A DNA stretch of 32,000 nucleotides from Polynucleobacter yangtzensis (GCF_001595965.1 NZ_LOJI01000001.1:246178-278177); one strand, 5' to 3'. Shown: positions 5,337 to 25,055, numbered from the stretch's first letter. Notes: generated by a model from the letters alone, not told the origin. Numbers and translations: made by a program.

Positions 5337-5430
5337 AAAAACCACCCGAAGGTGGTTTTGGTGTTTCTTGGTGGCCCGGGGCGGAATCGACCAGGACAGA
5401 GGGTGTATGACTCTAGCTCTAGACTACCCG
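5337..5430 (-). repeat. R1: terminator hairpin + tRNA-Phe 3'-end fragment + shared non-tRNA arm
   Basis: AAAACCACCCGAAGGTGGTTTT (5337-5359) followed by TGGTGGCCCGGGGCGGAATCGA (5369-5390). The next stretch, ...GACTCTAGCTCTAGAC, resembles R4. No tRNA 5' half is present. Confidence 0.85.
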
Positions 5431-5516
5431 CCAAAATAGATGACTCAATAAAAACCACTTTAAGTTTTCACCCAAAGTGGTTAAGTCCGTAGGAGCGGAC
5501 AAGCCGAAAATAATAA

Positions 5517-5837
5517 TTATTTTTTTCTTAAAAAAGCTGGAATATAGACTTCATCGTTTTGAGCATTGGTTGCTCTTATCCCAGAATGCTGTCTCCTGAA
5601 ATCCTCTAATTCAACCTCTAATGCCTTGGCATAAATCTGGGCATTAGTTAAAGTGCTCTCGGGTGCCTGCTTAAATCCCAACAGCTCACCATTTTCTATC
5701 CGAACAATTTCTTGAATTGCCAATCCGCAAGAGCCCGCTACTACGGGCAAGGTTAAGCTACGCATCTCTCTAGCCTCGCGAAGACGCTTACCCAACTGCC
5801 TAAAAGATTGAATTTCCAACAAAGTCATACAGCCCAC
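5517..5837 (-). CDS. Helix-turn-helix (XRE/Cro-C1-like) domain protein
   Basis: RLREAREMRSLTLPVVAGSCGLAIQEIVRIENGE is an HTH-like segment. The start may instead be the internal Met at 5828. Confidence 0.5.
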   Translation of the reverse strand: MGCMTLLEIQSFRQLGKRLREAREMRSLTLPVVAGSCGLAIQEIVRIENGELLGFKQAPESTLTNAQIYAKALEVELEDFRRQHSGIRATNAQNDEVYIPAFLRKK

Positions 5838-5950
5838 AACTTTAATAAATTAGGGCTTTATGTTCTCTCTGTAGCCTAGTCGGGTCAATTAGCCTTAGGG
5901 CGAATACGAAACCCATTACAAGTCACAGCCAATCCCATAAACTCTCGCGG

Positions 5951-7378
5951 ATGACACCTTTTACGATTCAAACCATTTTTTTGTTTTATAGCGCTCTGAG
6001 TTTTTTATCAGCGGCTCTTATTGGCGCATTATTTTGGAAGCGAAAAGATCGCTCAGCCAAACTGTGGCTTTGGGGCTGCTTGCTGACATCAATTGCCACC
6101 GCAATAACAGCTCATCGAAATAACATTCCACTAACCATCAGTTATAGCTTGATGGTTAGTTTTGAAGCCCTATCCATTCTCCTGTTTAGTGAATCATTAA
6201 AGCGTTTAGCCGTCAGTCAAGCAGAAGTAAAGCTTAGCTTACTTACCTTTATCATCCCCAGCACTCTTTTTCTTGTGATTGAATTTGCTAGGCAAATAGG
6301 CGGCGGAGAAATAACTCCAGCTATATCAGCACTGACAATGTCAACATTTGCTATCGCAAATGTATTTTGTCTTTATCAAACAGTACAAGTAAAAAAAGAA
6401 TTTGAAAATGAAATATTTTTTAATTTTTTGGGTATTGTTTTTGGAGTAGTAATCGCCCTGTATCTCGTAAGAATTTTTATCATTGCGAGCGGCTACAGTA
6501 GTCATTCATTTGACATTCAGACTTTAAATGTCATCACTTGGTTTGGACTGCTTTTATTTGGCGCTATCAGAAACCTTGCTTATATTGTTCTCAGGCTCCA
6601 TATGGGATTTACTGAACATACACGCTTAAATAGTATGAACCTACGACTCTCTGATGTTTTAGATGAACGCAATGAGATGATTCTTTCCTTACAAAAACTA
6701 AATAGATCGGCATCGATTAATGCCTTAGCCTCCACTATTTCACATGAGATTAATCAGCCTCTAGGCGCATCAAGACTCAATGCGCAATTTGCTGAGATGA
6801 AACTTGAATCAGACCCAGGCAATGTTTCACTTCTTAAAGAGCTTATTAAAAGCATATTAGAGGATATCAATAGAGCCTCAACCATTGTTAAAAATTTATC
6901 CAGATTAAGCTCTAATCAAAATAACAGCGTTGCCCATGTCAATCTTGCTGAATCGATTAATCAAGTTATTGAAATATCTAAAGGTAAGTTACGCTCCTCT
7001 AAAACCACCATTGAGCTTAATTGCGCTAGTCACTATCAAATTAATGTCAATGTGAGCGAGTGGCAGCAAGTATTAATTAACTTAATTAATAATGCGATTG
7101 ATGCTCTTGATGAGGCTGATATAGGTCACAAAAAAATAGAGATTTGCGCCAAACAAGAGGGCAAGACTATAAAAATTTCTATTCAAGACAATGGGCATGG
7201 TATTGCCGCTGGCCAGGAGACCAAAATTTTCGATTTAATGGTTAGCAATAAGGAAGCTGGGTCTGGAATTGGCCTGTGGCTCTCAAAAACTATCATCAAT
7301 AGATTTGGCGGTGAAATTAGTGCCCACAACACAAGTGATGGCGGAGCATGCTTTGTCATTGAACTACCCAAAGCCTAA
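5951..7378 (+). CDS. Membrane sensor histidine kinase
   Basis: About 6 N-terminal TM helices, H-box SHEINQPL, N-box NLINNAIDAL, G1 DNGHGI and G2 GSGIGL. Confidence 0.85.
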   Translation: MTPFTIQTIFLFYSALSFLSAALIGALFWKRKDRSAKLWLWGCLLTSIATAITAHRNNIPLTISYSLMVSFEALSILLFSESLKRLAVSQAEVKLSLLTFIIPSTLFLVIEFARQIGGGEITPAISALTMSTFAIANVFCLYQTVQVKKEFENEIFFNFLGIVFGVVIALYLVRIFIIASGYSSHSFDIQTLNVITWFGLLLFGAIRNLAYIVLRLHMGFTEHTRLNSMNLRLSDVLDERNEMILSLQKLNRSASINALASTISHEINQPLGASRLNAQFAEMKLESDPGNVSLLKELIKSILEDINRASTIVKNLSRLSSNQNNSVAHVNLAESINQVIEISKGKLRSSKTTIELNCASHYQINVNVSEWQQVLINLINNAIDALDEADIGHKKIEICAKQEGKTIKISIQDNGHGIAAGQETKIFDLMVSNKEAGSGIGLWLSKTIINRFGGEISAHNTSDGGACFVIELPKA

Positions 7379-7399
7379 GATGTCGTTTTAAACGACATC
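7379..7399. repeat. Perfect 21-bp palindrome GATGTCGTTT-T-AAACGACATC
   Basis: It starts 1 nt after the kinase stop codon and belongs to the TTTWAAA-centred palindrome family. Confidence 0.9.
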
Positions 7400-7421
7400 T
7401 AAACGTACCGCATAAACGAAA

Positions 7422-7495
7422 AAAACCACCCGAAGGTGGTTTTGGTGTTCTTGGTGGCCGGGGGCGGAATCGAACCGGGGCCGAGATGCTTAGAC
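7422..7495 (-). repeat. R2: terminator hairpin + tRNA-Phe 3'-end fragment
   Basis: Hairpin at 7422-7443 and TGGTGGCCGGGGGCGGAATCGAACC at 7452-7476, with 1 mismatch and 1 deletion relative to the consensus, followed by GGGGCCGAGATGCTTAGAC. Confidence 0.85.
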
Positions 7496-8014
7496 AAGTT
7501 GTTTTGTTAACAACACCAGCTTAAGGCCACTGATCTTAGGATTTCCAACGCCAGCATCTGCTGGATAGTCTGAGCTTACTTGCGTGGGCTCGTAGCCCCT
7601 ACGCAAATAAAAATCAAATAACTCTTTACGCTCTGAAATAACAAATAAATTAACCTCTGAAGACTCATATTGATTTTCGGCATACTCTTCTGCGAGCTGA
7701 AGTATTTCTTTGCCCAAGCCAAGATTTTGATATGACGGCTTAACTGTCAGCATGGCGATATAGCTTGCCCCAGCCTCTTCGTTGATATTCACGCAGGCAA
7801 CAATCTCACCTTTGTTTAGGCCGAGCAATATTGTCGACCCATCCCCATCAAGCAGATCAGCAAGTTGCTGTGTGTTGATTCTGTCGCCCTCTATAAGCCC
7901 TGACTCATGAGTCCAGCCGGTCTCAGGGCCGTTGGGACGATACGAGTTATTTATTAAGCCCACCAGCTCTGGTACGTCCCTTGCTGTGGCAATACGATAT
8001 TCGTCAATATTCAT
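7490..8014 (-). CDS. GNAT family N-acetyltransferase
   Basis: Carries the acetyl-CoA motif KPSYQNLGLGKEIL. I call the start at Met45 of the track ORF (MNIDEYRIATARDV). The upstream 44 codons of ORF 7490-8146 merely translate the tRNA fragment and terminator repeat. Confidence 0.8.
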   Translation of the reverse strand: MNIDEYRIATARDVPELVGLINNSYRPNGPETGWTHESGLIEGDRINTQQLADLLDGDGSTILLGLNKGEIVACVNINEEAGASYIAMLTVKPSYQNLGLGKEILQLAEEYAENQYESSEVNLFVISERKELFDFYLRRGYEPTQVSSDYPADAGVGNPKISGLKLVLLTKQLV

Positions 8015-8034
8015 GACGATAGTTTCACCCAAAT

Positions 8035-8115
8035 ATGAAAAAACCACCCGAAGGTGGTTTTGGTGTTTCTTGGTGGCCCGGGGCGGAATCGAACCACCGA
8101 CACAAGGATTTTCAA
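8035..8115 (-). repeat. R3: 81-bp perfect direct repeat of the tRNA-Phe 3' half (anticodon loop to CCA) plus terminator
   Basis: Identical base for base to 24944-25024. It covers tRNA positions ~32-76, the 9-nt spacer and the UUCG hairpin. The sequence past 8115 diverges and forms no cloverleaf. Confidence 0.9.
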
Positions 8116-8175
8116 GCATCCTCCGATTGACCGCTTCGCCAAGCATTTCAAGTGGTTATGCCAACCGAGACAGAT

Positions 8176-8238
8176 TGTGCGCAAAAAATGCTGAGCGTTT
8201 TCAGAAACTTACCGTAGCGTGTTGAAACTGTGCGCAAA
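8176..8238 (+). repeat. Two direct copies of TGTGCGCAAA (8176-8185, 8229-8238)
   Basis: A 10-mer repeated 53 bp apart, just inside the island end next to R3. This position fits arm-type recombinase binding sites, which is inference. Confidence 0.4.
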
Positions 8239-8335
8239 CCCAAATACCAATATGTAGCGGTGACTGACGTAAGGAGTACCAATAAATTAACTACACAAAT
8301 GCGCTAAATCTCGGTTCATGTATCAGTCAAAAATT

Positions 8336-8453
8336 GGTTCGACTCCTGCTCATGCCACCCAATTTTGGTTCGAATCCTAGTAGTGGTACCGAACAAAGTT
8401 TGGTTCTCAGCCATGCCACCAAACCTTTAGTTCGAATCCTGTGCCTGCAGCCA
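8336..8453 (+). repeat. Tandem cluster of four tRNA 3'-end-like fragments (T-loop + T-stem 3' strand + acceptor 3' strand + CCA-like end)
   Basis: The four units are GGTTCGACTCCTGCTCATGCCACCCA (8336-8361), GGTTCGAATCCTAGTAGTGGTACC (8367-8390), GGTTCTCAGCCATGCCACCA (8402-8421) and GTTCGAATCCTGTGCCTGCAGCCA (8430-8453). None has a matching 5' half. The units alternate A-B-A'-B', like a diverged ~64-nt duplication. Confidence 0.7.
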
Positions 8454-8469
8454 ACCATTGGTACTTGGA

Positions 8470-8488
8470 ATGTCGTTTTAAACGACAT
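8470..8488. repeat. Perfect 19-bp palindrome ATGTCGTTT-T-AAACGACAT
   Basis: Same family as 7379, 21842 and the others. It lies 17 nt after the tRNA-like cluster and upstream of the DUF3800 gene. Confidence 0.9.
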
Positions 8489-8564
8489 ACAAATACCTTA
8501 CTTTAATCTACTAAATTCTGTAAACTTTTCTGATTAATTAAAATCTTTTAAATCCATTTCTACT

Positions 8565-9284
8565 TTGTCAAATACAACCACTTCGCCACCTACGCATTAC
8601 AAAATATTTTGCGATGAAAGTTGTCATCTCCTAAGTGACAGCTCAAACATAATGGTATTTGGAGCGATTAAATGTGACGCAGATCAAGTGGCAAACGCCA
8701 TAAAGCAAATAAAAAGCTTGCGTGTCGTTCATAATTATCACACTGAAATTAAGTGGACTAAATTACATACCAAACATTTGCCGTTTTATAAAGCTCTCAT
8801 TAACTTATTTTTTGATTGTCATTTTTTAAAATTTAAAGCGACGGTTGTTCTTGATAAAAATCTACTAGATCACGAGAAATATAACAATGGATCTCACGCT
8901 GATTTTTATTACAAAATGGCGTACTACTCTTTAAGAGATTTTTTATCTACGCCAAATACTACATATCAAATTTATTTTGACTATGTAGATACACAAGGAA
9001 ACAATAAGGCCTCGCGTTTAAGAGATATTTTAATTAACAGGATGCATGGAAATCTTGAACTTTCAACTCAAGTCATAAGATCCCACGAATCGAACTTAAT
9101 TCAACTTTGCGATCTCTTGATTGGGGCGATTGGCTATGTCAATAGAAATGATCTAGCTCATTTAAGCAGTATAAAAAATCAAATTATTGAACACTTAAAA
9201 GTAAAAAGCCATAGAAGCTTAAATATTGCTTCGGCACCTTGGGAAGAAAAATTTAATCTTTTCCTTTTTAGCCCAAGAAAATAA
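8565..9284 (+). CDS. DUF3800-like protein
   Basis: N-terminal YKIFCDESCH (the DES motif) and C-terminal SNLIQLCDLLIGAIGY (the QxxD motif), as I recall for DUF3800. The gene is very AT-rich, and the TTG start with no clear RBS leaves the start uncertain. Confidence 0.6.
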   Translation: MSNTTTSPPTHYKIFCDESCHLLSDSSNIMVFGAIKCDADQVANAIKQIKSLRVVHNYHTEIKWTKLHTKHLPFYKALINLFFDCHFLKFKATVVLDKNLLDHEKYNNGSHADFYYKMAYYSLRDFLSTPNTTYQIYFDYVDTQGNNKASRLRDILINRMHGNLELSTQVIRSHESNLIQLCDLLIGAIGYVNRNDLAHLSSIKNQIIEHLKVKSHRSLNIASAPWEEKFNLFLFSPRK

Positions 9285-9285
9285 G

Positions 9286-9798
9286 ATGCTTCCTTCTATT
9301 ATCAATACAAGTGGCATTGATGCTACAAAGCTTTTTGATCATCTTTATAGATTTTTTCATCAAGATTTTGTCTGCAATAGGACATACCTGAATCAAACAA
9401 TTTACATAGATCCACAATCTAAACAACTAGAGGATGGCAAAGAAAAAACTTTTTGGCACCTCACGACAAAAAAGGATCAGTTAACCAAGATAAGGCTTTA
9501 CGATCCAAGACGTGCAGAGCGCCTCAATTGGGTAAAGGTAATCATTGAAAACCATTCGGCTCCATTAGTTTCATATTTTTATCATCAAGAAAATAATGCT
9601 AAAAAAGATATAAGACTATATCTCTGGGCAGAAAACCATGATTTTGTAGTCATCCTTCAAAAGCTCGGTAGATCCAGTTCAATTCTTGTAACAAGCTTTT
9701 ATATAGATCATCCCCATAAAAAGGTTGATTACAAAAAAAGACTTCATGCTTATCGCAATGGAACCAATCCAGCACTTATGAATGTTGATTGGTTTTAA
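9286..9798 (+). CDS. Hypothetical protein, translationally coupled partner of the DUF3800 gene
   Basis: The ATG lies 1 nt after the upstream stop (MLPSIINTSG...). The C-terminal ...DFVVILQKLGRSSSILVTSFYIDHP is reminiscent of small RelE/barnase-type toxin folds, a weak impression only. Confidence 0.55.
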   Translation: MLPSIINTSGIDATKLFDHLYRFFHQDFVCNRTYLNQTIYIDPQSKQLEDGKEKTFWHLTTKKDQLTKIRLYDPRRAERLNWVKVIIENHSAPLVSYFYHQENNAKKDIRLYLWAENHDFVVILQKLGRSSSILVTSFYIDHPHKKVDYKKRLHAYRNGTNPALMNVDWF

Positions 9799-9801
9799 AA
9801 A

Positions 9802-9824
9802 AAATCCGCCATGGAGGCGGATTT
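9802..9824 (+). terminator. Intrinsic terminator after the two-gene module
   Basis: AAATCCGCC-atgg-AGGCGGATTT, starting 4 nt after the stop codon. Confidence 0.7.
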
Positions 9825-10107
9825 AAGAATTTGGTCGCCTATTATGGACCGGGCGATACGGTCACCTCTTTCTACCAATTGGTAGGTGAGCGAAGTGATT
9901 TTGCAACATACAGCTCAAGATTACAAATCTAAATACCCTAATACAGTGAAAATACAACATCTATAATGCTGTAACTCATTGATTAAAATGAATATTTTTA
10001 ACTGCATCAAATTATTTACCCACTCGATGTATGGGTAAATAAACAACTCCCACACCCAAATAAATGAATTCCTGAAACTAAAATTGCTAATAACGGCAAA
10101 TTTTAGA

Positions 10108-10446
10108 ATGAAATCATTACCCAAAGAACTTAAAACTACTTCCGTTGATTCCAAGCTACCCACACAGGCTAGATTTGAGCAAAGCTTGCGAGATTCTATT
10201 GAAGGTCAGGAATCCATATTAAGCATTGGCTATTTGCAGTATGTTGCTCAATATCAATCTCATAACCCCTTTAGTCATTCACGCATCACCTACAAAGTAA
10301 TCCATAGAAATACAGGATGTTCTGTGCTCATTAAATTAACTAGGGTTTTAAATACTGGCTCAGGGCTACGCAAACGCCAGAGAATCAATAGAACTGCAAA
10401 GCGAATAGCAGTGAAATGGATGCCAAGACTCAAGACGAGGTATTGA
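10108..10446 (+). CDS. Hypothetical protein (doubtful)
   Basis: ORF-track entry 10084-10446 with an internal ATG at 10108. The C-terminus is basic, there is no RBS and I recognised no motif. Confidence 0.25.
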   Translation: MKSLPKELKTTSVDSKLPTQARFEQSLRDSIEGQESILSIGYLQYVAQYQSHNPFSHSRITYKVIHRNTGCSVLIKLTRVLNTGSGLRKRQRINRTAKRIAVKWMPRLKTRY

Positions 10447-10526
10447 TTTACGCATTACCTGTCAGCCAGATAATCTGTCAAACTCTAAAAAGAGTAATCA
10501 CCAGATCAAACCGCGATTTTGAATCA

Positions 10527-10922
10527 TTAGAGCGGTTTGGGCGTTTCGCCCCTTAAATAGTCCCTAAACATTTTTAACTCTTGCGGCGATTTAGTAGTAA
10601 TAGTGGGCCCTGTTGTAGCGGGTGACTTAGGTTGTGAAGGTGCAATCGTTTTAGCTTGAGCAACTGGCTTAGCTACTTTTTGCTGTACAGCTTGTGCTGG
10701 CCTAGTTACTGGAGCAGGCATAGCTCTTTGAAGCAAACTCACCGCCTTGGGTTTAGGTATCTTTGGGGCTTTGGGGGTCTTGGCTTTGGGCTTACTGGCT
10801 TGAGCCGCCTTCTGTTTTGCCTGTGTACTAGCTTGTTGGCTAATGGCACTCCAGGTGTTATTCATAATGATTCGCAATAATCCTAGCTGATCTTCTGCAT
10901 TGGCAATCTCATACATTCTCAT
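10527..10922 (-). CDS. Hypothetical protein with a Lys/Pro/Ala-rich low-complexity region
   Basis: Strong AGGAGA RBS. A ~30-aa N-terminal segment is followed by QAKQKAAQASKPKAKTPKAPKIPKPKA...KVAKPVAQAK repeats. Confidence 0.65.
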   Translation of the reverse strand: MRMYEIANAEDQLGLLRIIMNNTWSAISQQASTQAKQKAAQASKPKAKTPKAPKIPKPKAVSLLQRAMPAPVTRPAQAVQQKVAKPVAQAKTIAPSQPKSPATTGPTITTKSPQELKMFRDYLRGETPKPL

Positions 10923-10977
10923 GGCTTTCTCCTTTCCTTATATTTATCGGATCGTCTAGGATTTAGACGATCCCCAC

Positions 10978-11127
10978 CTAAACCTCTGTTGGCAAATGCA
11001 CCACATTGTTTGCACCATACTGCCCTTGCAATAAGAAATAAGCGGCTTGACTGTTATCGGCAACTACTTGAGTTTGCACTACCCAGCCCTGCGGCTGTAT
11101 ACGTACGTAGGCTACATATGTTTTCAT
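10978..11127 (-). CDS. Small hypothetical protein (49 aa)
   Basis: My own translation gives MKTYVAYVRIQPQGWVVQTQVVADNSQAAYFLLQGQYGANNVVHLPTEV. A 10-bp-stem hairpin, GGATCGTCTA-ggatt-TAGACGATCC (10949-10973), follows it. Confidence 0.35.
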   Translation of the reverse strand: MKTYVAYVRIQPQGWVVQTQVVADNSQAAYFLLQGQYGANNVVHLPTEV

Positions 11128-11183
11128 TTAATCCATCCATAGAAAAAGAGCTAACACTAGGATTAGCATTAGCTCGTGGTTAC

Positions 11184-11621: not shown

Positions 11622-11675
11622 TTCATTTCTCCTTTGTAGTTAATGGGCACACTTAATTTATGGTCAGAGTTTTTG

Positions 11676-11687: not shown

Positions 11688-11766
11688 CTTTTTGCCAATA
11701 TCTGCCAGAACCAAAGGATTTAAGCCAGATCTGTTCTTCTTTTATTAGGTTTTGCTAAATACTTTT

Positions 11767-18516: not shown

Positions 18517-18522
18517 GAACAA

Positions 18523-18711: not shown

Positions 18712-19887
18712 TCAACGAAACATTGGGTATAACACTAGACCAAATAAAGCGGCCGCAATTACCACCACCGGCTCAGTGAGTTTCTTGTATTTCCAAAGCA
18801 ATGCGGTCGTCACAATAGCCAATACAGCAGTCGGAATATCCACAATAGAGCGCTGACCAATCACAATGACTGAACCAGTAATAGCACCAACTGCGGCGGC
18901 TGTTACTCCGTCAATAAAAGCAACCAGACTCGGATTCTTGCCATATTTCTTAAAGTAAGGTGCTGGAATAATAGTGAACAAGTAGCAAGGAATAAAAGTG
19001 GCCAATGCCGCAACACTGGCACCAGTAAAGCCAGCAATGAGATATCCAATAAAGCCAACAGTGATGACTACAGGACCTGGCGTAATCATTGCAACAGCCA
19101 CCGCATCGACAAACTGTTTCTCAGTTAGCCATTGATGCTCTACAACTACACCGCCATATAAGAATGGCACGATGGCTAATCCCGAACCAAATACAAAGGC
19201 GCCTGCTTTTGTAAAGAAGATGGCAATTTGACTTAGAAGTGAAAGATCAAAGCTACCCCAAATACTCGTAAATGCTGGTACTTGAGTAACGGCAATGGAG
19301 TTCAGTCCACCGCTCTTAAACCACTTTGGTGGCGCCTTAACAAATAAAGTAATAAGGCCTGCAGTAAAGACGAGTGAGGCAATTTCAGATTGAGTGATGA
19401 CGGTACTTACCACCATCACTACAAAGATTGCCCACAATAACTTATCTTTACCAATCGTTTTCTTAGTGAGTTTTTGGGCGCTAATCGCAATGATGCCAAT
19501 CACGGCGGCACCCACGCCATAAAAAACTGCCTGCATCCAAGCTAAATCTCCATAAGCCACATATGCCCATCCTAGAGCAACCACCATAAAAAATGAGGGG
19601 ATCACAAATGCAATACCTACTAAAGTTGCTCCAAGAATTTTGTAATGCACATACCCAAGATATATGGCTAATTGTGCAGCCATTGGACCAGGGGCCATCT
19701 GAGCTAAGGCCATTCCTTCTCTATAATCAGCTTCAGTTATCCAGCCATACTTCTCCACTAAATCTCGATTCATATAACCTACCAAAGCGACCGGTCCTCC
19801 AAAACCCCAAGTACCCAACTTGAGCATATAGATAACCAATTGCCAAAGTGAATAACTTGGTTTGAGTTGTTCTATTGAATTGCTCAT
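18712..19887 (-). CDS. chrA: Chromate ion transporter (CHR family)
   Basis: 391 aa with ~10-12 TM segments and the duplicated CHR halves: FGGPVALVGYM... and GSGLAIVPFL...ITPGPVVIT. Confidence 0.85.
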   Translation of the reverse strand: MSNSIEQLKPSYSLWQLVIYMLKLGTWGFGGPVALVGYMNRDLVEKYGWITEADYREGMALAQMAPGPMAAQLAIYLGYVHYKILGATLVGIAFVIPSFFMVVALGWAYVAYGDLAWMQAVFYGVGAAVIGIIAISAQKLTKKTIGKDKLLWAIFVVMVVSTVITQSEIASLVFTAGLITLFVKAPPKWFKSGGLNSIAVTQVPAFTSIWGSFDLSLLSQIAIFFTKAGAFVFGSGLAIVPFLYGGVVVEHQWLTEKQFVDAVAVAMITPGPVVITVGFIGYLIAGFTGASVAALATFIPCYLFTIIPAPYFKKYGKNPSLVAFIDGVTAAAVGAITGSVIVIGQRSIVDIPTAVLAIVTTALLWKYKKLTEPVVVIAAALFGLVLYPMFR

Positions 19888-20822
19888 TTCACACCCTCTT
19901 TCGTAAATGCGCCTACCAAGGCATCAAATACACCGCTGGCTTTGTCGAGCAATTGATCATCGGTTTTAGTGGATACCTTCAACCCCGCAATGATTGCCTC
20001 AACACCTTGCGCTTCAGCTGGTTGAATACCACCTACATCCAAAGCATGAATCACAGCGCCCAAACGCTTAATAGCCGCATCATCAATTCCAAAACTTTGG
20101 GCAATCACTTCAAATGTCACTAGGCCATCTATATGGGTAAAGGTAGCGCCATCAAAATCAAATCCCAACGCGGTCTTAGGGCACTCCTTTATTGATTTAA
20201 GCCAGATAAATGATGCCTTTGGGTCGATGTACTTACGGATAAGCCAAGCACTAGCGAGCCTATCAATCCAAAGTCTAGAGCGGGTTGCCCACCTCTTGCC
20301 TTGATAGTTCTTGATATTGAGCTTGGTAATTTTTCGCTGAATGGCATGCGGCTCACCTGGAGATTGAATGGCAGCAATCGCAAGCTCCAATTCTTCTAAA
20401 ACACGATTAGCTTGTCTGCTTGATTCACCAACATAAAAATCAATTGCTACTAATGCCTCATATTGCTTACGAAGTTTTCGCGCTTCTTTAATTTGTTCAA
20501 GTATTAATTTGGGTTTAAGTTTTTTAATCAGAGCCTTAGATTGCTGAATTAATTGGGCATAGTCTTCTGCTCGATCAAACAACGATTTAAAACTTTCGCT
20601 TGTCGGCTGTTCAATAGTCACTACATAAGCTGAACCACCCGCACTTAATACTTGCTCTGAAGCAAGCTCGAATGTTGTTTTGTGTTGCTTATCATTTGGC
20701 AAAATATATACACCATCTCGCAGAACAGCGGCGCCTGAAGCCTTTAAAGAACGCCAAATTCGCATCCGCTCCGTAGGGCTGGAAGTAGGCAAAGATAGGA
20801 TGAGGGCATAGAACTTGTTCAT
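19884..20822 (-). CDS. chrB: ChrB-like chromate resistance protein
   Basis: The N-terminal LSLPTSSPTERMRIWRSLKASGAAVLRDGVYILPN is typical of ChrB. A 4-nt overlap couples it to chrA. Confidence 0.75.
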   Translation of the reverse strand: MNKFYALILSLPTSSPTERMRIWRSLKASGAAVLRDGVYILPNDKQHKTTFELASEQVLSAGGSAYVVTIEQPTSESFKSLFDRAEDYAQLIQQSKALIKKLKPKLILEQIKEARKLRKQYEALVAIDFYVGESSRQANRVLEELELAIAAIQSPGEPHAIQRKITKLNIKNYQGKRWATRSRLWIDRLASAWLIRKYIDPKASFIWLKSIKECPKTALGFDFDGATFTHIDGLVTFEVIAQSFGIDDAAIKRLGAVIHALDVGGIQPAEAQGVEAIIAGLKVSTKTDDQLLDKASGVFDALVGAFTKEGVK

Positions 20823-20860
20823 GTAATATATGCTACATTAATGTATTAAATACTACAAGT

Positions 20861-20891
20861 ATTGATTTGTCGTTTAAAACGACAAATCAAT
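20861..20891. repeat. Perfect 31-bp palindrome ATTGATTTGTCGTTT-A-AAACGACAAATCAAT
   Basis: The longest family member, lying between the divergent chrB and TonB-like genes. Confidence 0.9.
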
Positions 20892-21010
20892 GACTCATCA
20901 ATGGCAGCCTATTCTGATTAAGACGCTTAAACGGCACCTAGCTAGCCATGACATGATGTATGGACAACAAGCAAACCTATAACGCAATCGATACAGTCTA
21001 AGCCTCTAAA

Positions 21011-21805
21011 TTGACCAAACAACCGGCGCCTATGCGCTCCGTCGCTATCTGGCTCTCCATCGCTCTTCACCTAGGGCTATTTCTGCTGTGGACATCATAT
21101 GAAGGCTTCACCCACTTAAAACCCAAAGATAAAAATCCAGACATCATTGAGGTTCAGCTTGAAGAGCCTATCGCTAAAACCAATAATGACTTAAACGCCA
21201 GTCAAAACATCGATAAACAGCCAGTATCATTGGCCGCTCCCTTAGCGCCAACAGCAGAAGAGTGGGCTTTTGCCTCAAAGTACACACTCAAAAATAGCAA
21301 AGGCTATCGCCATTCCTTTGGTCAGCAAGTGCGAAGTATGATGGGAACTGCTGTTGAGGGGCCAGACCAAGGGCAAGTGAGATTTAGAATTGAAATTGCT
21401 CCGAATGGCGCTGTCGTTAAAGTGGAAACACTTTGGAAAACATCGGACAAAGCAGAGCAATTGGCGAGAAAGGCAATGAAGTCTATGCCTGCTTTGCCGC
21501 CCACGCCAACTGGGAAATCACTTATTTTTGAGAGAACCATTTCATTTACGCCATTTGCTACAAATGATGCCCCAATTTACAGGGATGATTGCCTGCCTGA
21601 TACACCAGCGTTTGGCAATCCATTTGCCTGGGATGGCAAATCACCGCAAGAAATCAAGAAGAGCAAGTCTGCTGAAAAACTCAGCCCCGAAGCCTTGGCA
21701 GAATGCCTTAAGCAGTTACCCCAAGATTCTATTGATGGCATCACTGCTGAAGCTCAACGGCAACTAGACATATGGAGCTCAGGAAAACTTAATCAAAGAA
21801 AGTAA
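21011..21805 (+). CDS. TonB C-terminal-domain-like membrane-anchored protein
   Basis: An N-terminal TM anchor (VAIWLSIALHLGLFLLW) and a central VRFRIEIAPNGAVVKVETL... TonB_C-like segment. The start may be the ATG at 21032. Confidence 0.55.
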   Translation: MTKQPAPMRSVAIWLSIALHLGLFLLWTSYEGFTHLKPKDKNPDIIEVQLEEPIAKTNNDLNASQNIDKQPVSLAAPLAPTAEEWAFASKYTLKNSKGYRHSFGQQVRSMMGTAVEGPDQGQVRFRIEIAPNGAVVKVETLWKTSDKAEQLARKAMKSMPALPPTPTGKSLIFERTISFTPFATNDAPIYRDDCLPDTPAFGNPFAWDGKSPQEIKKSKSAEKLSPEALAECLKQLPQDSIDGITAEAQRQLDIWSSGKLNQRK

Positions 21806-21841
21806 GGTTTCTATATATACGTATATACGCATATATTTGTA

Positions 21842-21904
21842 ATGTCGTTTTAAACGACATCGACTGACGCAAGGATGCTAACTTGATTTATCCTTTTAAA
21901 GGGA
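21842..21904 (+). repeat. Conserved ~63-nt module: 19-bp palindrome + GACTGACGCAAGGATG + second TTTTAAA palindrome
   Basis: About 85% identical by eye to 24275-24336. A partial third copy of the middle motif, GACTGACGTAAGGAG, lies at 8262-8276. Confidence 0.8.
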
Positions 21905-21964
21905 CGACTCATGATGGGGCTAACCGAGACTAATGGCGTCCTGTCTCTAGACGCTAACAAATAA

Positions 21965-22064
21965 AAAACCACCCGAAGGTGGTTTTGGTGTTTCTTGGTG
22001 GCCCGGGGCGGAATCGAACCAGGGCCGAGGATGTCTGACTCTATTTCTAGACTGTCATTTTAAA
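21965..22064 (-). repeat. R4: terminator hairpin + tRNA-Phe 3'-end fragment + shared arm ending in half-site TGTCATTTTAAA
   Basis: Hairpin at 21965-21986, TGGTGGCCCGGGGCGGAATCGAACC at 21996-22020, then AGGGCCGAGGATGTCTGACTCTATTTCTAGAC and the half-site at 22053-22064. Confidence 0.85.
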
Positions 22065-22174
22065 AAATCCATAAGTTGCTTCATTTCATACAAAAATAGT
22101 TAATGTGAGGGGTATTAAGGCTTACCTTTTAGAAACTAATCACTAATAATAGAGCCATTCAATATGGACTTTCT

Positions 22175-23098
22175 ATGACAAAATTTTTCTTAACTATATT
22201 TTTGGTAGCAACATTCGGTTCAGCATCATATGCTCAAACCCTTAAAAGCCAAAAGATTAATGAATCTAGTTATGCCTTGATTGGTGAAATTGGCGGTAGA
22301 ACTTATGAGAACCAAGGTCTAAATGCCAACTATGGGGTTGTGGTTACAAAGGATGGAGTCATACTGATTGATAGCGGCGCATCAAAACAAGGAGCGGAGC
22401 TAATTAGTAAAGAGGTTCAAAAAATAACTGCGCAGAAAATACGATGGGTCATCAACACAGGCTCTCAAGACCATCGCTGGTTAGGCAATGATTACTTTAT
22501 ATCGCAAGGCGCTGAAGTGATTGCTCTTAGTAAAACGGTTGCCACGCAAAAATTGATGGCGGGCGGGCAAGTAGACTCGGTTAAAGCCGTTTTAAAGGAT
22601 CGCTTTAACGGAACTAAACCAGCATATGCTCAAAAACCAATTACTCAAAATGATGTTGCTCTGGATCTTGGTGGCACAAAAGTTCAGATTAAATATCTTA
22701 ATCACGCTCACTTTGAAGGCGATGTCGTGGTGTATCTTCCAGACCAAAACATCATGTTTTCGGGAGACCATATATACGTCGATAGATTGTTAGGAGTTTT
22801 GCCGCAAAGTAATGCCTCAACATGGTTAGATGCTTTTAATCAGATTGAATCTATTAATCCAAAGGTAATTGTTCCTGGACATGGCAATATTTGCGATCTA
22901 AACAAAGCAAAGAGACAAACAGGCGACTATCTGAAGTTTCTTGTTGATGGAACAAAAAAATACGCTGAGGAAATGGCGGGTGTTGAAGCCGCCGTTAAGG
23001 GCTTATCAAATGCCCCCCAATTTGAAAAGTTAGCGAACTTTAATGAACTACACAAAGGAAATATCAGCAGAACATATCTTAGGTTAGAGGCCCAGTAA
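22175..23098 (+). CDS. Secreted MBL-fold metallo-hydrolase-like protein
   Basis: It has a signal peptide and the later MBL ligand motifs HAHFEGD, SGDH and PGHG. The first motif reads TGSQDH instead of HxHxDH. Confidence 0.7.
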   Translation: MTKFFLTIFLVATFGSASYAQTLKSQKINESSYALIGEIGGRTYENQGLNANYGVVVTKDGVILIDSGASKQGAELISKEVQKITAQKIRWVINTGSQDHRWLGNDYFISQGAEVIALSKTVATQKLMAGGQVDSVKAVLKDRFNGTKPAYAQKPITQNDVALDLGGTKVQIKYLNHAHFEGDVVVYLPDQNIMFSGDHIYVDRLLGVLPQSNASTWLDAFNQIESINPKVIVPGHGNICDLNKAKRQTGDYLKFLVDGTKKYAEEMAGVEAAVKGLSNAPQFEKLANFNELHKGNISRTYLRLEAQ

Positions 23099-23099
23099 A

Positions 23100-23116
23100 T
23101 GTCGTTTAAAACGACA
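23100..23116. repeat. 17-bp palindrome TGTCGTTT-A-AAACGACA
   Basis: It starts 2 nt after the MBL stop codon. Confidence 0.9.
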
Positions 23117-23163
23117 GCGACAGGCAAAGTCGAACTGCGTTAATGCTTTAGCTAACAAATGAG

Positions 23164-23258
23164 AAAACCACCCGAAGGTGGTTTTGGTATTTCTTGGTGG
23201 CCCGGGGCGGAATCGAACCAGGGCAGAGGATATCTAGACATAATAACTGTCGTTTAAA
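23164..23258 (-). repeat. R5: terminator hairpin + tRNA-Phe 3'-end fragment + arm ending in half-site TGTCGTTTAAA
   Basis: Hairpin at 23164-23185, core at 23195-23219, then GGGCAGAGGATATCTAGAC and the half-site at 23248-23258. Confidence 0.85.
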
Positions 23259-23335
23259 TAGATATTTTTAATATTAGAGGCTTATTATTGCTTTTTATAC
23301 AGCCTTGGATTCTAGAAAACAGTTATCCTAAGACC

Positions 23336-24259
23336 ATGAAAAAATATTTGTCCACCTTAAGCATATCCCTGATCTGGTTTGGAATTCCTATGGTAGGCCA
23401 TGCCCAACCTGATGGAGTCGCACAAAATGATGCTATTAAGGCTACGGTTAGTGTTACGGGAATAAACCAATTTAATACCAGCCTAAATACGGGTGGGAAT
23501 TTTGGGTGGTCTAGTGCTGGCGCCACGCTCAATTTGCTGAAACCCATTTCAGCGGCAACTTCAATTGGCGTCTCTGTTCGCTATGGCAGCCAGTTTTGGA
23601 ACTGGAGCAATATGAATAGCTACGGCTATGGTGGGAAGAGTCCATGGACGACGATTAGCACTCCGGCACTGGGCCTCAGCTATTCTCACAAACTCGACTC
23701 TGATTGGAGGCTCAACTTTATTCCCACAATAGAGTCTTCTGCAGAGACTGGCGCCAATCTAAATAACTCCCTTACTTATGGCGCTATTTTTAATGGCTCA
23801 AAACAACTCTCGCCCACCTTAAATCTAGGCCTGGGTACTGGCGTCTTTCGCCAGATTGATACGAACCGAGTATTTCCATTTATTGTGATTGATTGGAAGA
23901 TCTCTGATCGCTGGAATCTAAATAATCCATTCCCAGGTGGTCCAGCGGGTGGCGCAGGTCTGGAGCTAACCTATAAGGTTACTAGTGACTTTAAAGTGTC
24001 GGGCGGTGCAGCCTATAATAGCTATCGCTTTCGCCTAAATGATTCAGGCCCTTACGCTGGTGGCGTTGGTCAAAACAAGTTCATTCCCGTATTTGCCAAG
24101 TTTTCCTATGCGATTGATAGAACCACAGCCCTAGATCTTTACGCCCTTGCCAATATGGGAGGAAGTGTGACTGCCATTAACACCAACGGCAATACTGCCC
24201 TTAGCACCAATTACAGAACTGCTCCCGCAGTCGCTCTAAACCTCGTTAAGCGTTTTTGA
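23336..24259 (+). CDS. Outer-membrane beta-barrel protein (putative)
   Basis: The start is at MKKYLSTLSISLIWFGIPMVGHAQ (signal peptide). The sequence shows alternating Gly/aromatic-rich strands and a C-terminal ...LNLVKRF terminal Phe. Confidence 0.65.
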   Translation: MKKYLSTLSISLIWFGIPMVGHAQPDGVAQNDAIKATVSVTGINQFNTSLNTGGNFGWSSAGATLNLLKPISAATSIGVSVRYGSQFWNWSNMNSYGYGGKSPWTTISTPALGLSYSHKLDSDWRLNFIPTIESSAETGANLNNSLTYGAIFNGSKQLSPTLNLGLGTGVFRQIDTNRVFPFIVIDWKISDRWNLNNPFPGGPAGGAGLELTYKVTSDFKVSGGAAYNSYRFRLNDSGPYAGGVGQNKFIPVFAKFSYAIDRTTALDLYALANMGGSVTAINTNGNTALSTNYRTAPAVALNLVKRF

Positions 24260-24274
24260 TTTCAGCGTCTAATT

Positions 24275-24336
24275 TGTCGTTTAAAACGACATCGACTGAC
24301 GCAGGGATGTCTAATTGATTTGTCCTTTTAAAGGAC
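24275..24336 (+). repeat. Conserved module: 17-bp palindrome + GACTGACGCAGGGATG + GTCCTTTTAAAGGAC palindrome
   Basis: Paralogous to 21842-21904. The second palindrome is perfect with 7-bp arms (24322-24336). Confidence 0.8.
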
Positions 24337-24375
24337 ACTTCTTAATCAGGCGCCCCATACGCAATTCTCCAAACA

Positions 24376-24450
24376 AAAACCACCCGAAGGTGGTTTAGGT
24401 GTTTCTTGGAGGCCCGGGGCGGAATCGGCCTGGGCCTAGGATGCTTAATC
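24376..24450 (-). repeat. R6: degenerate terminator hairpin + tRNA-Phe 3'-end fragment
   Basis: AAAACCACCCGAAGGTGGTTTA followed by TGGAGGCCCGGGGCGGAATCGGCC, with several substitutions, then TGGGCCTAGGATGCTTAATCC. Confidence 0.8.
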
Positions 24451-24463
24451 CTGCTTGCTACTA

Positions 24464-24859
24464 TTACATCTTCACAATTTTCCAAGCACCATTTAAGAAG
24501 CCGTCTCCAGTCTTATCTCCTGGCTTGGTATCTTTAACCCAGAAATACAGGGGCATTCCTTTGAATGCTAATTGCTTTTTGCCGTCATCACGAGTGATTA
24601 CAGAATAATCGCCAGACACTGCTGGACTACCATCAACTAATAGTGGTGGCCAGTTGGTGGCACATGGGCCATTACACATAGACTTACCTGAACCAGCCGC
24701 ATCTTTGGCAAAGGTATACAGGGTCATATTATTACTACCTACTAACATGCCATCATTTACTTTGGTATATGGCGCCATGGCTCCGCCCGTCATCGACGCA
24801 CATGCAGCTAATGTAGCAGCAGCGATCAAACTAATTAATACGCCCTTAATACGATTCAT
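24464..24859 (-). CDS. Lipoprotein with Yx(FWY)xxD repeats
   Basis: Lipobox LAAC and two repeats, LYTFAKD and LYFWVKD. Confidence 0.75.
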   Translation of the reverse strand: MNRIKGVLISLIAAATLAACASMTGGAMAPYTKVNDGMLVGSNNMTLYTFAKDAAGSGKSMCNGPCATNWPPLLVDGSPAVSGDYSVITRDDGKKQLAFKGMPLYFWVKDTKPGDKTGDGFLNGAWKIVKM

Positions 24860-24948
24860 GTAGATCCCCTTTAAAAGTTAAGTTAACACTCTACTGGTTA
24901 TTTATGTTTGAAGTATGACGTGATTAAAACTAAGGGGCTAGGCATGAA

Positions 24949-24970
24949 AAAACCACCCGAAGGTGGTTTT
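24949..24970 (-). terminator. Intrinsic terminator of tRNA-Phe
   Basis: Minus strand reads AAAACCACC-UUCG-GGUGGUUUUUU: a UUCG tetraloop stem plus a U-run, 9 nt after the CCA end. Confidence 0.85.
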
Positions 24971-24979
24971 GGTGTTTCT

Positions 24980-25055
24980 TGGTGGCCCGGGGCGGAATCG
25001 AACCACCGACACAAGGATTTTCAATCCTCTGCTCTACCGACTGAGCTACCAGGCC
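24980..25055 (-). tRNA. tRNA-Phe (GAA), CCA encoded
   Basis: The reverse complement GGCCTGGTAGCTCAGTCGGTAGAGCAGAGGATTGAAAATCCTTGTGTCGGTGGTTCGATTCCGCCCCGGGCCACCA folds as a full cloverleaf. The acceptor stem has 7 bp including one G-U, the D-arm is GCTC/GAGC, the anticodon loop is TTGAAAA and the T-arm is GGTGG/CCGCC. It closely resembles E. coli tRNA-Phe. Confidence 0.95.

What the first reader, a model, noticed from the sequence alone, without database searches (positions are those of the whole stretch)
5337..25055. Seven same-orientation copies of the tRNA-Phe 3' end plus terminator cut ~20 kb into gene cassettes
All seven copies have the same layout. Each has AAAACCACC-CGAA-GGTGGTTTT (on the minus strand a UUCG-looped stem plus a U-run), about 9 nt of spacer, and then TGGTGGCCCGGGGCGGAATCGAACC. 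That last segment is the reverse complement of the T-arm/acceptor/CCA end of the tRNA-Phe gene.

The copies lie at 5337-5430, 7422-7495, 8035-8115, 21965-22064, 23164-23258 and 24376-24450, plus the real gene with its terminator at 24949-25055. Only the last copy has a 5' half and a cloverleaf.

The intervals between copies hold one or two genes each (HTH+kinase; GNAT; MBL hydrolase; OM barrel; lipoprotein) or a 13.8 kb integrase-bearing block.

Five copies (R1, R2, R4, R5, R6) leave tRNA identity right after GAATCGAACC. They instead share a non-tRNA arm (CAGGGCCGAGGATGTCTGACTCTA..TCTAGAC). This makes them look like attP-type junctions from a family of related small elements stacked by repeated site-specific insertion, rather than random decay of one scar.

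None of the small units encodes a recombinase. Several cassette genes also end within 0-2 nt of a repeat module or inside one: the kinase stop at 7378 abuts the palindrome at 7379, the MBL stop at 23098 precedes the palindrome at 23100, and the GNAT stop at 7490-7492 lies inside R2. This is an integron-like economy without an integron integrase.
Basis: partly seen in the sequence, partly recalled or inferred. Interest (0 to 1): 0.8.

Follow-up and report, generated by a model that had tools for sequence, protein, structure and literature searches.

The report
tRNA-Phe-anchored array of mobile gene cassettes
In this freshwater Polynucleobacter genome the tRNA-Phe gene is a docking site where small one- or two-gene cassettes, each carrying a copy of the tRNA's 3' end plus a terminator but no recombinase, are stacked and shuffled between strains and species much like integron cassettes.

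Summary
There are seven same-orientation copies of [terminator hairpin + 9 nt + tRNA-Phe 3' end], and only the last is a real tRNA.

The window comes from Polynucleobacter. Conspecific contigs with identical flanking proteins carry at least eight different contents between tRNA-Phe and the peroxiredoxin gene.

A genome-collection scan found 273 cassette-type junctions, always co-oriented in arrays. The median spacing is about 1 kb.

32 cassette types recur in different species, positions and orders. The window's DUF6268 cassette is 99.5-100% identical across three species. The window's MBL cassette has seven different tRNA-proximal neighbours.

The conserved non-tRNA arm travels with the cassette on the tRNA side, and the spacer plus hairpin usually travels with the next cassette. 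This places the crossover in the T-loop/T-stem 3' segment.

The 13.9 kb integrase island is a different class. Its identity to the tRNA starts exactly at the anticodon loop.

Best reading: this is an additive genomic island made of integrase-less attP-bearing cassettes that are inserted at the tRNA by a tyrosine recombinase supplied in trans and not yet identified, with homologous recombination also contributing. The category is known (additive flexible islands, tycheposon-remodelled islands, CIMEs). The integron-like fine anatomy appears to be undescribed.

The parts
24980..25055 (-). Intact tRNA-Phe(GAA) gene, the primary docking site at the proximal end of the array.
   Evidence: ARAGORN. 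Rfam tRNA hit at 68 bits. The native promoter region is identical to that of the near-empty strain L002.
24428..24983 (-). Cassette 1 (type C14). Terminator hairpin 24949-24970, Lipoprotein_15 gene 24464-24859 (same sense as the tRNA), P arm 24428-24456. Bounded by junction cores at 24984-25000 and 24411-24427.
   Evidence: The same cassette type is the first cassette in L065 and L111 (83% identity, with a different hairpin).
23216..24410 (-). Cassette 2 (type C3). Hairpin 24376-24397, palindromes 24321-24337 and 24275-24291, DUF6268 outer-membrane-type gene 23288-24259 (+), P arm 23216-23244.
   Evidence: It is 99.5-100% identical in L004, L018, L089 and L135, where it sits directly after the tRNA or a pseudo-tRNA-Phe.
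22017..23198 (-). Cassette 3. Hairpin 23164-23185, palindrome 23100-23116, metallo-beta-lactamase-fold gene 22175-23098 (+), P arm 22017-22045.
   Evidence: The exact protein occurs in 8 shown contexts, with 7 different tRNA-proximal neighbours (including the real tRNA in L145) and 2 distal neighbours. All breaks fall at the junction cores.
8092..21999 (-). 13.9 kb integrase-bearing island, a different att class. Contents: P' arm with hairpin 21965-21986 and palindrome 21843-21859; a 264-aa protein with no Pfam hit (21011-21805); chrB 19884-20822; chrA 18712-19887; tyrosine integrase 17179-18453; AAA/clamp-loader-like gene 15575-16246; a small 214-aa tyrosine recombinase 13159-13803; DUF6641 11184-11621; DUF3800 8565-9284; long P arm whose tRNA identity starts at the anticodon loop (8092-8115).
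   Evidence: Orthologous islands are found in L112, L099, L022, L011, L139-L150. Long-att identity starts exactly at TTGAAAA in the large majority of the 32 long-att junctions.
7473..8074 (-). Cassette 5. Hairpin 8040-8061, GNAT acetyltransferase gene about 8014-7490 (same sense as the tRNA, stop codon inside the P arm), P arm 7473-7501.
   Evidence: The same P arm precedes C11 in L017.
5390..7455 (-). Cassette 6 (type C11). Hairpin 7422-7443, palindrome 7381-7397, histidine kinase 5951-7378 (+), HTH protein 5517-5837 (-), P arm 5390-5418.
   Evidence: It occurs in L017 and L018 (97% identity) after a different neighbour, and the core variant CCCCCGGCC travels with it.
5338..5389 (-). Terminal junction. 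The displaced ancestral tRNA 3' end (core 5373-5389) plus the native terminator hairpin 5338-5359, followed by the conserved chromosomal flank (peroxiredoxin 4736-5290).
   Evidence: The sequence downstream of this core is identical in all conspecific contigs, whatever the array content.

Best explanation
The region is an additive genomic island: an array of small mobile gene cassettes docked at the 3' end of the single tRNA-Phe gene of a Polynucleobacter chromosome.

Each cassette is a self-contained unit. Read in the tRNA's direction it consists of:
- a spacer and a bidirectional terminator hairpin;
- in about one junction in seven, a conserved arm of about 150 nt that carries two palindromes (45 unique junctions);
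- one or two genes with their own upstream region;
- a conserved arm of about 28 nt (consensus TAGGATTAGACATCCTAGGCCCTGGT), which is a diverged copy of the tRNA's anticodon arm and variable region;
- the tRNA-identical segment from the T-loop to CCA.

Together, the arm, the tRNA segment and the hairpin form an attP-like site.

Inferred mechanism: a circular cassette recombines with the tRNA gene inside CGATTCCGCCCC (the 3' part of the T-loop and the 3' strand of the T-stem). The incoming cassette rebuilds the tRNA 3' end and supplies a new terminator. Older cassettes are pushed away from the tRNA. The recombinase is supplied in trans and is probably a tyrosine integrase of the kind that uses symmetric tRNA sublocations.

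The 13.9 kb island in the middle of the array is a separate, autonomous element. It uses the anticodon loop as its crossover.

Homologous recombination between the 60-90 bp repeats adds deletions and swaps.

Shown: the anatomy, the modularity, the linkage of each arm to its cassette, and the turnover between strains and species. Inferred: circular intermediates, the exact crossover point, and the identity of the enzyme.
For: Anatomy.

Same species, different arrays: the flanking RR and peroxiredoxin proteins are identical, but the content ranges from one cassette (L002) to more than 20 kb. The chromosomal distal junction is always the same.

Genus-wide spread: 273 cassette-type junctions, 32 long-att junctions and 39 junctions classed as full-length tRNA (four of which are pseudo-tRNA-Phe copies that ARAGORN does not call). 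All are co-oriented within each locus. Median unit length is 1060 bp.

Conserved arm with shared derived characters: CATCCT at 90% or more, and a 2-nt deletion relative to the tRNA, in positions the search pattern did not require.

Modularity: 32 cassette types recur in different orders and next to different neighbours. C3 is 99.5-100% identical across three species, and C8 and C10 are 97-99.8% identical. The MBL cassette has 7 different proximal neighbours but only 2 distal ones, which points to insertion at the tRNA end.

Linkage: the P arm goes with the proximal cassette body. The spacer plus hairpin goes with the distal cassette body (C8 4/4, C13 3/3, C2 7/7, C10 3/3, C11 3/3). One core variant, at core position 13, travels with the distal cassette.

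Terminators: the hairpins score as terminators on both strands, and at least six different hairpin sequences occupy the same position.

Compactness: 56 of 71 single-gene cassettes are co-oriented with the tRNA, and their stop codon lies a median 26 nt before the core.

Shared arm: the P' arm with palindromes is found on cassettes, on the island's attL and after real tRNAs.
Against: No recombinase for the cassette-type site was identified. Most array tiles contain no integrase homologue. The only integrase family seen at the locus crosses over in the anticodon loop, not where the cassettes do.

No circular or tandem junction was found for cassette C3 in the metagenome collection. No copy was found in viral contigs, plasmids or phages.

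The hairpin is sometimes swapped relative to its cassette (C1, C4, and the window copies of C3 and C14). A single fixed crossover does not explain this, and it fits homologous or illegitimate recombination better.

The crossover window rests on one informative shared variant.

60% of cassette arms lack one T of the T-loop, which is awkward if the T-loop itself is the overlap region.
Confidence: 0.65

Rival explanations
1. There is no dedicated recombinase. The 60-90 bp identical core plus hairpin repeats act only as portable homology. Cassettes are exchanged, deleted and reordered by RecA-dependent homologous recombination after DNA uptake, and the conserved arm is simply inherited from one ancestral junction.
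For: The cores and the commonest hairpin are near-identical over about 60 nt in most junctions. Hairpin swaps and variable breakpoints just past the T-run occur in C1, C4, C3 and C14. Most arrays have no nearby integrase. High homologous recombination is documented in Polynucleobacter, with r/m = 7.4 (PMC5644125).
Against: The arm is only about 70-90% alike between unrelated cassettes, so it adds little homology. Yet it keeps the same consensus, length and position in 259 unique junctions.

Cassettes with quite different hairpins still break at the same place.

C3 moved to a pseudo-tRNA-Phe at another locus in other species, with the break at the core.

The polarity of turnover (the proximal side is variable, the distal side conserved) is what insertion at one site predicts.

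Homologous recombination does not explain how new genes acquire the arm.
Confidence: 0.25
2. The cassettes are inert remnants of once-autonomous islands of the 13.9 kb kind that lost their integrase by deletion. This would make them decayed scars, or CIME-like elements mobilised only in cis by accretion with an intact island.
For: Cassettes and the island share the same P' arm with palindromes. The island sits in the array. Prochlorococcus islands contain such remnants (10.1101/2020.12.28.424599).
Against: Cassette arms share derived characters that the island's long arm lacks, and they have lost the TTGAAAA overlap that the island family uses. The median unit is one gene of about 1 kb, with the stop codon built into the arm, so it does not look like a random deletion product. 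Identical cassettes move singly, without an island.
Confidence: 0.07
3. The repeat is a dispersed MITE/REP-like element, or local tandem duplication and decay of the tRNA gene, with no role in gene mobility.
For: It is short, structured and repeated many times.
Against: No copy lies outside co-oriented arrays in about 750 kb of surrounding sequence. The units carry unrelated genes. The same units occur in other species in other orders.
Confidence: 0.02

Closest known systems
Additive flexible genomic islands at tRNA genes (Alteromonas: PMC4898812, PMC3698932; 'Ca. Methylopumilus' fGI-2 with repeats of the last 20 nt of tRNA-Lys: PMC10872708; additive islands of P. asymbioticus cited in 10.1101/2022.03.25.485477)
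   Same: The same chromosomal spot next to a tRNA in all strains. A variable number of cassettes marked by direct repeats of the tRNA 3' part. Near-identical cassettes in different species. tRNA-Phe is a favoured target in Alteromonas too.
   Different: Those descriptions are at gene-map level. The following features were not described in the papers I read: a median unit of one gene; a conserved non-tRNA arm of about 28 nt; a terminator as part of every unit; palindrome-bearing P' arms; toxin-antitoxin cassettes; a crossover window mapped to the T-loop/T-stem.
Integron gene cassettes (attI / attC / IntI)
   Same: An array of mostly single-gene units of about 1 kb without their own recombinase. 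Each unit ends in a recombination site that abuts or contains the stop codon. 79% of single-gene units are co-oriented. The newest units lie next to the primary site. Many cassettes encode toxin-antitoxin pairs. The same cassettes occur in different orders in different hosts.
   Different: There is no IntI and no attI. The sites are tRNA-3'-end mimics rather than attC hairpins, and the predicted arm hairpin is barely better than shuffled. The primary site is an essential tRNA gene that each insertion must rebuild. Every cassette brings a terminator and about 60 nt of upstream DNA, so it is not promoterless.
Tycheposons and the islands they remodel in Prochlorococcus (10.1101/2020.12.28.424599)
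   Same: A streamlined planktonic host. Tyrosine-recombinase elements at a few tRNA genes. Successive integrations push older elements inward, leaving partial tRNAs between blocks of flexible genes.
   Different: Tycheposons carry their own integrase and replication module, and the partial tRNAs are described as scars. Here the small units are a homogeneous family with a conserved arm and no integrase. No homology test against tycheposon hallmark genes was made.
CIMEs (cis-mobilisable elements) and site-specific accretion in streptococcal ICEs (PMC5704250, PMC7563491; from the search list and my own knowledge, not read in detail)
   Same: Elements bounded by att sites that encode no integrase and depend on one supplied by another element. 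They form tandem arrays at a tRNA or gene 3' end.
   Different: CIMEs are few per genome and are thought to derive from ICEs by deletion. Here there are up to 9 or more units per array, and they use a different crossover from the co-resident island.
Dehalococcoides ssrA-specific genomic islands in tandem (PMC3146451; from the search list)
   Same: Repeated 3' end of a tRNA-like gene separating tandem islands in a high-plasticity region.
   Different: Those islands are multi-kb and each carries its own integrase.

Membership tests
Integron | intI gene (tyrosine recombinase with the IntI-specific insertion) next to the array | tested here: not met
   No recombinase in the small units. The island recombinases score 21-39 bits against the NCBIfam integron-integrase models, whose cut-offs are 265 and 435 bits.
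Integron | attC sites: imperfect inverted repeats folding as hairpins, with R''/L''-L'/R' boxes | tested here: not met
   The repeated site is the tRNA-Phe 3' end plus an arm. The only candidate arm hairpin is 70% paired against 65% in shuffles.
Integron | Promoterless, co-oriented cassettes expressed from a platform promoter | tested here: inconclusive
   56 of 71 single-gene cassettes are co-oriented. However, each begins with a terminator and has a median 105 nt between the core and the start codon. Expression was not measured.
Additive flexible genomic island at a tRNA gene | Same chromosomal position in different strains, with varying numbers and kinds of cassettes | tested here: met
   Identical flanking proteins, at least 8 different contents.
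Additive flexible genomic island at a tRNA gene | [quoted passage not shown] | tested here: met
Additive flexible genomic island at a tRNA gene | Nearly identical cassettes in distantly related genomes | tested here: met
   C3 is 99.5-100% identical, C8 97-99.8% and C10 99.5% across GTDB species representatives.
CIME / integrase-less satellite of an integrative element | Flanked by att sites, with no integrase of its own | tested here: met
CIME / integrase-less satellite of an integrative element | Uses the att site and integrase of a co-resident autonomous element | tested here: inconclusive
   The P' arm is shared with the island, but the inferred crossover differs: T-loop/T-stem for cassettes against anticodon loop for the island. 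No functional test is possible with these tools.
Tycheposon | Tyrosine or serine recombinase plus replication module plus cargo, inserted at a tRNA gene | not tested
   The 13.9 kb island has two tyrosine recombinases and a clamp-loader-like AAA protein. No comparison with tycheposon hallmark families was made. The small cassettes lack all of these.
MITE / REP element | Copies dispersed at many unrelated loci in both orientations | tested here: not met
   All 344 junctions are co-oriented within arrays.

The most novel reading that the evidence does not exclude
Polynucleobacter and some related freshwater Burkholderiaceae/Alcaligenaceae may possess a second, independently evolved integron-like system. 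In it, an essential tRNA-Phe gene plays the part of attI. A module of about 100-250 bp (diverged anticodon arm + T-loop-to-CCA segment + terminator + palindromes) plays the part of attC. A recombinase encoded elsewhere in the genome, or borrowed from the anticodon-loop islands, captures, excises and reshuffles single-gene cassettes, including toxin-antitoxin stabilisers. The 17-bp palindrome would be the binding site of an accessory factor.
Probability: 0.35. Interest if true: 0.8.

Novelty: new variant of a known kind. Interest (0 to 1): 0.6.

Why it matters
Polynucleobacter is among the most abundant freshwater bacteria. It has a genome of about 2 Mb, and strain-level differences in gene content are thought to drive its ecological diversification.

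This locus shows, at base-pair resolution, how single genes for transport, stress, envelope functions, sensors and toxin-antitoxin pairs are added and swapped at one tRNA gene, and passed between species almost unchanged.

If a dedicated recombinase exists, this would be an integron-like gene-capture platform built on a tRNA gene. It would give a concrete mechanism for the 'additive flexible islands' reported in many planktonic bacteria, and a compact natural docking system (site + terminator + expression unit). It would also sharpen the question of how cassettes acquire their recombination site.

Tried and rejected
- Rfam scan of the window: only the tRNA.
- Scan of viral contigs with the cassette-junction pattern: 0 hits.
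- BLAST of the 236-nt junction module against plasmids and phages: no match.
- Metagenome scan for a circular or tandem junction of cassette C3 (its own P arm joined to its own P' arm): 0 hits. This was a long shot and is not informative.
- Search for a degenerate junction upstream of the island integrase (18454-18711): none seen.
- Test of a pseudo-anticodon hairpin in the arm: pairing barely above shuffled, so an attC-like folded site was rejected.
- A crossover at the pseudo-anticodon loop of the arm was rejected, because cassette-specific variants on both sides of that loop stay with the same cassette (C1).
- Exact-protein look-up of the GNAT with the start at 8014: not on record.
- Look-up of the island integrase gave only fragments of the same arrangement.
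Pfam instead shows a membrane histidine kinase.
- Literature search for Polynucleobacter + tRNA-Phe: nothing. PMC5644125 does not mention tRNA or integrase.

Full report
OBSERVATION. The window has one tRNA gene, tRNA-Phe(GAA), at 24980-25055 on the minus strand. The hairpin AAAACCACCCGAAGGTGGTTTT occurs seven times. The tRNA 3' end occurs six times at up to 3 mismatches, plus a more diverged seventh copy. All are on one strand, and none is expected by chance. Alignment shows a common module of hairpin, 9-nt spacer and TGGTGGCCCGGGGCGGAATCGAACC. R3 continues as tRNA as far as the anticodon loop (98% identity to the gene over 86 nt). R1, R2, R4, R5 and R6 switch to a shared non-tRNA arm. The small intervals encode an HTH protein plus a membrane histidine kinase, a GNAT, an MBL-fold hydrolase, a DUF6268 protein and a Lipoprotein_15 protein, with no recombinase. 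It is a separate repeat family with ten copies (8 exact or with one mismatch, 2 with two mismatches), all inside 7381-24337.

ORGANISM AND CONSPECIFIC VARIATION. Exact-protein look-ups of the two flanking genes (response regulator 25149-25832 and peroxiredoxin 4736-5290) returned contigs from genomes of about 2 Mb and from lake metagenomes. The later genome scan names the genus as Polynucleobacter. Between identical flanks the content differs widely. L002 has one small unit. L012 has two (amidohydrolase/GntR/TctC, then AraC+MFS). L018 has DUF6268, a 319-aa gene, and kinase+HTH. L011 has the island, a CDF transporter, and a GreA-like gene through GDH to a hydrolase. L008 has an MFS transporter. 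Every boundary is a copy of the module. The last junction, with the ancestral terminator and flank, is the same in all of them.

GENUS-WIDE PICTURE. I scanned one genome per species with a pattern specific to the cassette-type junction (CCTGGT[N]CGATTCCGCCCCGGGCC), which the real tRNA does not match. Nearly all are from Polynucleobacter or related freshwater Burkholderiaceae/Alcaligenaceae. A relaxed re-scan of all loci found 273 cassette-type junctions, 32 long-att junctions and 39 junctions classed as full-length tRNA-Phe. Four of those 39 are pseudo-tRNA-Phe copies with a degenerate 5' part that ARAGORN does not call (L050, L089, L123, L135). Within every locus all copies point the same way. 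Up to 8 junctions fit in 8 kb. The 212 inter-junction units have a median length of 1060 bp and an interquartile range of 704-2091 bp. The consensus in the tRNA sense is aatAGGaTtAGaCATCCTaGGCCCTGGT(T) | CGATTCCGCCCCGGGCCACCAAGAA | about 6 nt | hairpin | T-run. The arm is conserved (CATCCT at 90% or more) in positions the search pattern did not require. It aligns with the tRNA's anticodon arm and variable region, with shared derived differences: TTGAAAA becomes TTAGACA, and TGTGTCGG becomes AGGCCC. It is therefore a homologous, maintained arm and not independent decay.

MODULARITY. Clustering the units gave 32 types with more than one member. They are found in different species at different positions and in different orders, for example L030 C19|C4|C8|C13|C1, L040 C13|C9|C8|C4|.|C23|C1 and L038 C4|C8|C22. 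The window reads C14 | C3 | MBL | island | GNAT | C11. C3 is 99.5-100% identical in the window, in L004/L018, and in two other species representatives (L089, L135). In L089 and L135 it follows a pseudo-tRNA-Phe, which in L135 lies downstream of the tmRNA gene. The window's MBL protein occurs, residue for residue, with seven different tRNA-proximal neighbours: the real tRNA, another island's long arm, a BrnA/BrnT-type toxin-antitoxin cassette, lipoprotein cassettes, a 156-aa gene, and DUF6268. It has only two distal neighbours. That polarity is what insertion at the tRNA end predicts.

WHERE THE CROSSOVER IS. Within a cassette type, the arm up to ...TGGT stays with the cassette body on the tRNA side. 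For example, the C1-specific form GGATGAGAGTCTCC persists next to different following cassettes. The spacer and hairpin stay with the cassette body on the far side (C8 4/4, C13 3/3, C2 7/7, C10 3/3, C11 3/3). A core variant (CCCCCGGCC, core position 13) accompanies C11 behind two different neighbours. The exchange therefore lies in (T)CGATTCCGCCCC, meaning the 3' part of the T-loop and the 3' strand of the T-stem. This rests on few informative sites. Hairpin swaps in C1, C4 and the window copies of C3 and C14 show that other recombination also occurs there.

THE ISLAND IS A DIFFERENT CLASS. In the large majority of the 32 long-att junctions, identity to the tRNA starts exactly at TTGAAAA, and the upstream island end is conserved (…GCGAAAGCGGTCTATCGGAGGATAT|TTGAAAATCC). 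The window's R3 is one of these. The island carries a 424-aa divergent tyrosine integrase and a 214-aa catalytic-domain-only tyrosine recombinase. It also carries a clamp-loader-like AAA protein, DUF6641, DUF3800 and chrBA. Orthologues at 83-91% identity and relatives at 40-47% identity occur elsewhere, always paired with the small recombinase. In conspecific contigs L001/3/4/5/7/9, relatives of this island sit on the other side of the tRNA. The native promoter and 5' half are kept up to GGATTGAAAA, and a second promoter plus 5' half completes the gene further on. Identity thus ends or begins at the same 7 nt, which marks the anticodon loop as the overlap for this integrase family. That differs from the cassettes. 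From established knowledge (Williams 2002, NAR 30:866; recalled, not read here), integrase subfamilies that use symmetric tRNA sublocations can use either the anticodon loop or the T-loop. A relative of the island integrase is therefore a reasonable candidate for the cassette enzyme, but this is a lead only.

WHAT A CASSETTE CONTAINS. There are 141 distinct units, and 71 carry a single ORF. 56 of those 71 run in the tRNA's direction. Their stop codon ends a median 26 nt before the core, at the TAG on the left edge of the arm. Their start lies a median 105 nt after the core, which leaves about 60 nt after the hairpin. At least six unrelated hairpin sequences occupy the same position, each flanked by an A-run and a T-run. 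The window's copies score as terminators on both strands. After insertion the cassette therefore supplies both the tRNA's 3' end and its terminator, and the units are insulated from each other. The palindrome family GTC[G/C]TTTWAAA[C/G]GAC is seven-fold enriched in arrays (106 copies in 341 kb against 34 in 753 kb). It sits at -60 to -40 or +60 to +200 relative to the core. In 45 unique junctions, including the island's attL and real tRNAs, it belongs to a conserved P' arm of about 150 nt that carries two palindromes and a second copy of the ATTAnACATCC motif. I read these as protein-binding arm sites. That is inference.

CARGO. The most widespread cassettes are toxin-antitoxin units: C1 BrnT, C2 Phd/YefM, C12 BrnA, C18 Gp49/HigB-like and C26 ParE. 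Others confirmed by Pfam encode a lipid A acyltransferase, a glutathione S-transferase, DUF3024 and DUF3106, an outer-membrane-type DUF6268 protein, and MFS, CDF and DinB-family proteins (Pfam columns). By eye from the translations, further cassettes appear to encode K+ channel/antiporter proteins.

MECHANISM AND RIVALS. The best explanation (0.65) is site-specific insertion of integrase-less, attP-bearing cassettes at the tRNA by a recombinase acting in trans, with homologous recombination between repeats adding deletions and swaps. The main rival (0.25) is that homologous recombination alone moves the units. The long identical repeats, the hairpin swaps, the lack of linked integrases and the high r/m reported for the genus all favour that rival. 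Against it are the maintained but non-identical arm, the constant break point across different hairpins, the transfer to a pseudo-tRNA at another locus, and the proximal-side polarity. The readings as decayed island remnants (0.07) and as MITE/duplication (0.02) fit poorly.

COMPARISON WITH WHAT IS KNOWN. The category is known. Additive flexible genomic islands at tRNA genes, with cassettes marked by tRNA repeats, are reported in Alteromonas, where tRNA-Phe is among the favoured targets. They are also reported in 'Ca. Methylopumilus', with repeats of the last 20 nt of tRNA-Lys and units from 330 bp to 42 kb, and are cited for P. asymbioticus. Prochlorococcus islands are remodelled by tycheposons that leave partial tRNAs. 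CIMEs and Dehalococcoides ssrA islands are further analogues. The system works like an integron but fails the integron membership tests: no IntI, no attI and no attC. I found no paper that links Polynucleobacter and tRNA-Phe. None of the papers I read describes the conserved arm, the obligatory terminator, the palindrome arms, the one-gene unit size or the toxin-antitoxin content.

VERDICT. Novelty: a new variant of a known kind. Interest 0.6. A specialist would not be surprised by a tRNA-anchored island. The homogeneous, integron-like cassette family with an unidentified recombinase is a clear, testable lead.

Noticed in passing
L001, L003, L004, L005, L007, L009 around 10778-10815; L004 14240-14353; L003 17578-17649; L109, L120, L036: Islands stacked on the 5' side of tRNA-Phe. 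The native promoter and 5' half are retained up to the anticodon loop (GGATTGAAAA) and followed by foreign DNA. A second promoter plus 5' half (85-90% identical) lies 3.6-7 kb further on and completes the gene. In L109, L120 and L036 the integrase sits 5' of the tRNA and is divergently oriented. These elements appear to carry the tRNA's 5' half and promoter rather than the usual 3' part. None is present in the window.
   Followed up: partly
window 8330-8460 (+ strand): Three or four tandem fragments that resemble tRNA 3' ends (GGTTCGACTCC..CCACC, GGTTCGAATCC.., AGTTCGAATCC..GCCAACCA). They lie in the opposite orientation to the Phe array, inside the distal end of the island. ARAGORN and Rfam do not call them.
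   Followed up: no
L135 1434 (near tmRNA 2049-2407), L123 3112 (near tRNA-Arg/tRNA-Pro), L089 2479, L050 5000: A pseudo-tRNA-Phe with a degenerate 5' part (GGCCAATAGCRGYCG.TAGAGCAGAGGATTGAAAATCC...) anchors secondary cassette arrays away from the real tRNA-Phe gene in some species.
   Followed up: partly
window 7381, 8471, 13389, 16123, 18266, 20868, 21843, 23100, 24275, 24321: The 17-bp perfect palindrome TGTCGTTTWAAACGACA (variant GTCCTTTAAAAGGAC) is confined to the array and the island. Some copies lie inside coding sequence, including the integrase and the small recombinase genes. It is seven-fold enriched in arrays genus-wide. Its binding partner is unknown.
   Followed up: partly
window 13159-13803 (+): A 214-aa tyrosine recombinase consisting of the catalytic domain only (the size of FimB/FimE-type invertases). 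It always accompanies the large integrase in this island family, about 3.4 kb away and in the opposite orientation. Its role is unknown.
   Followed up: partly
L143-L150 versus window 18454-21999: The cargo between the island's attL and its integrase varies: chrBA plus a 264-aa gene in the window and L112, and shorter in L099 and L022. The island therefore has its own variable cargo bay.
   Followed up: partly
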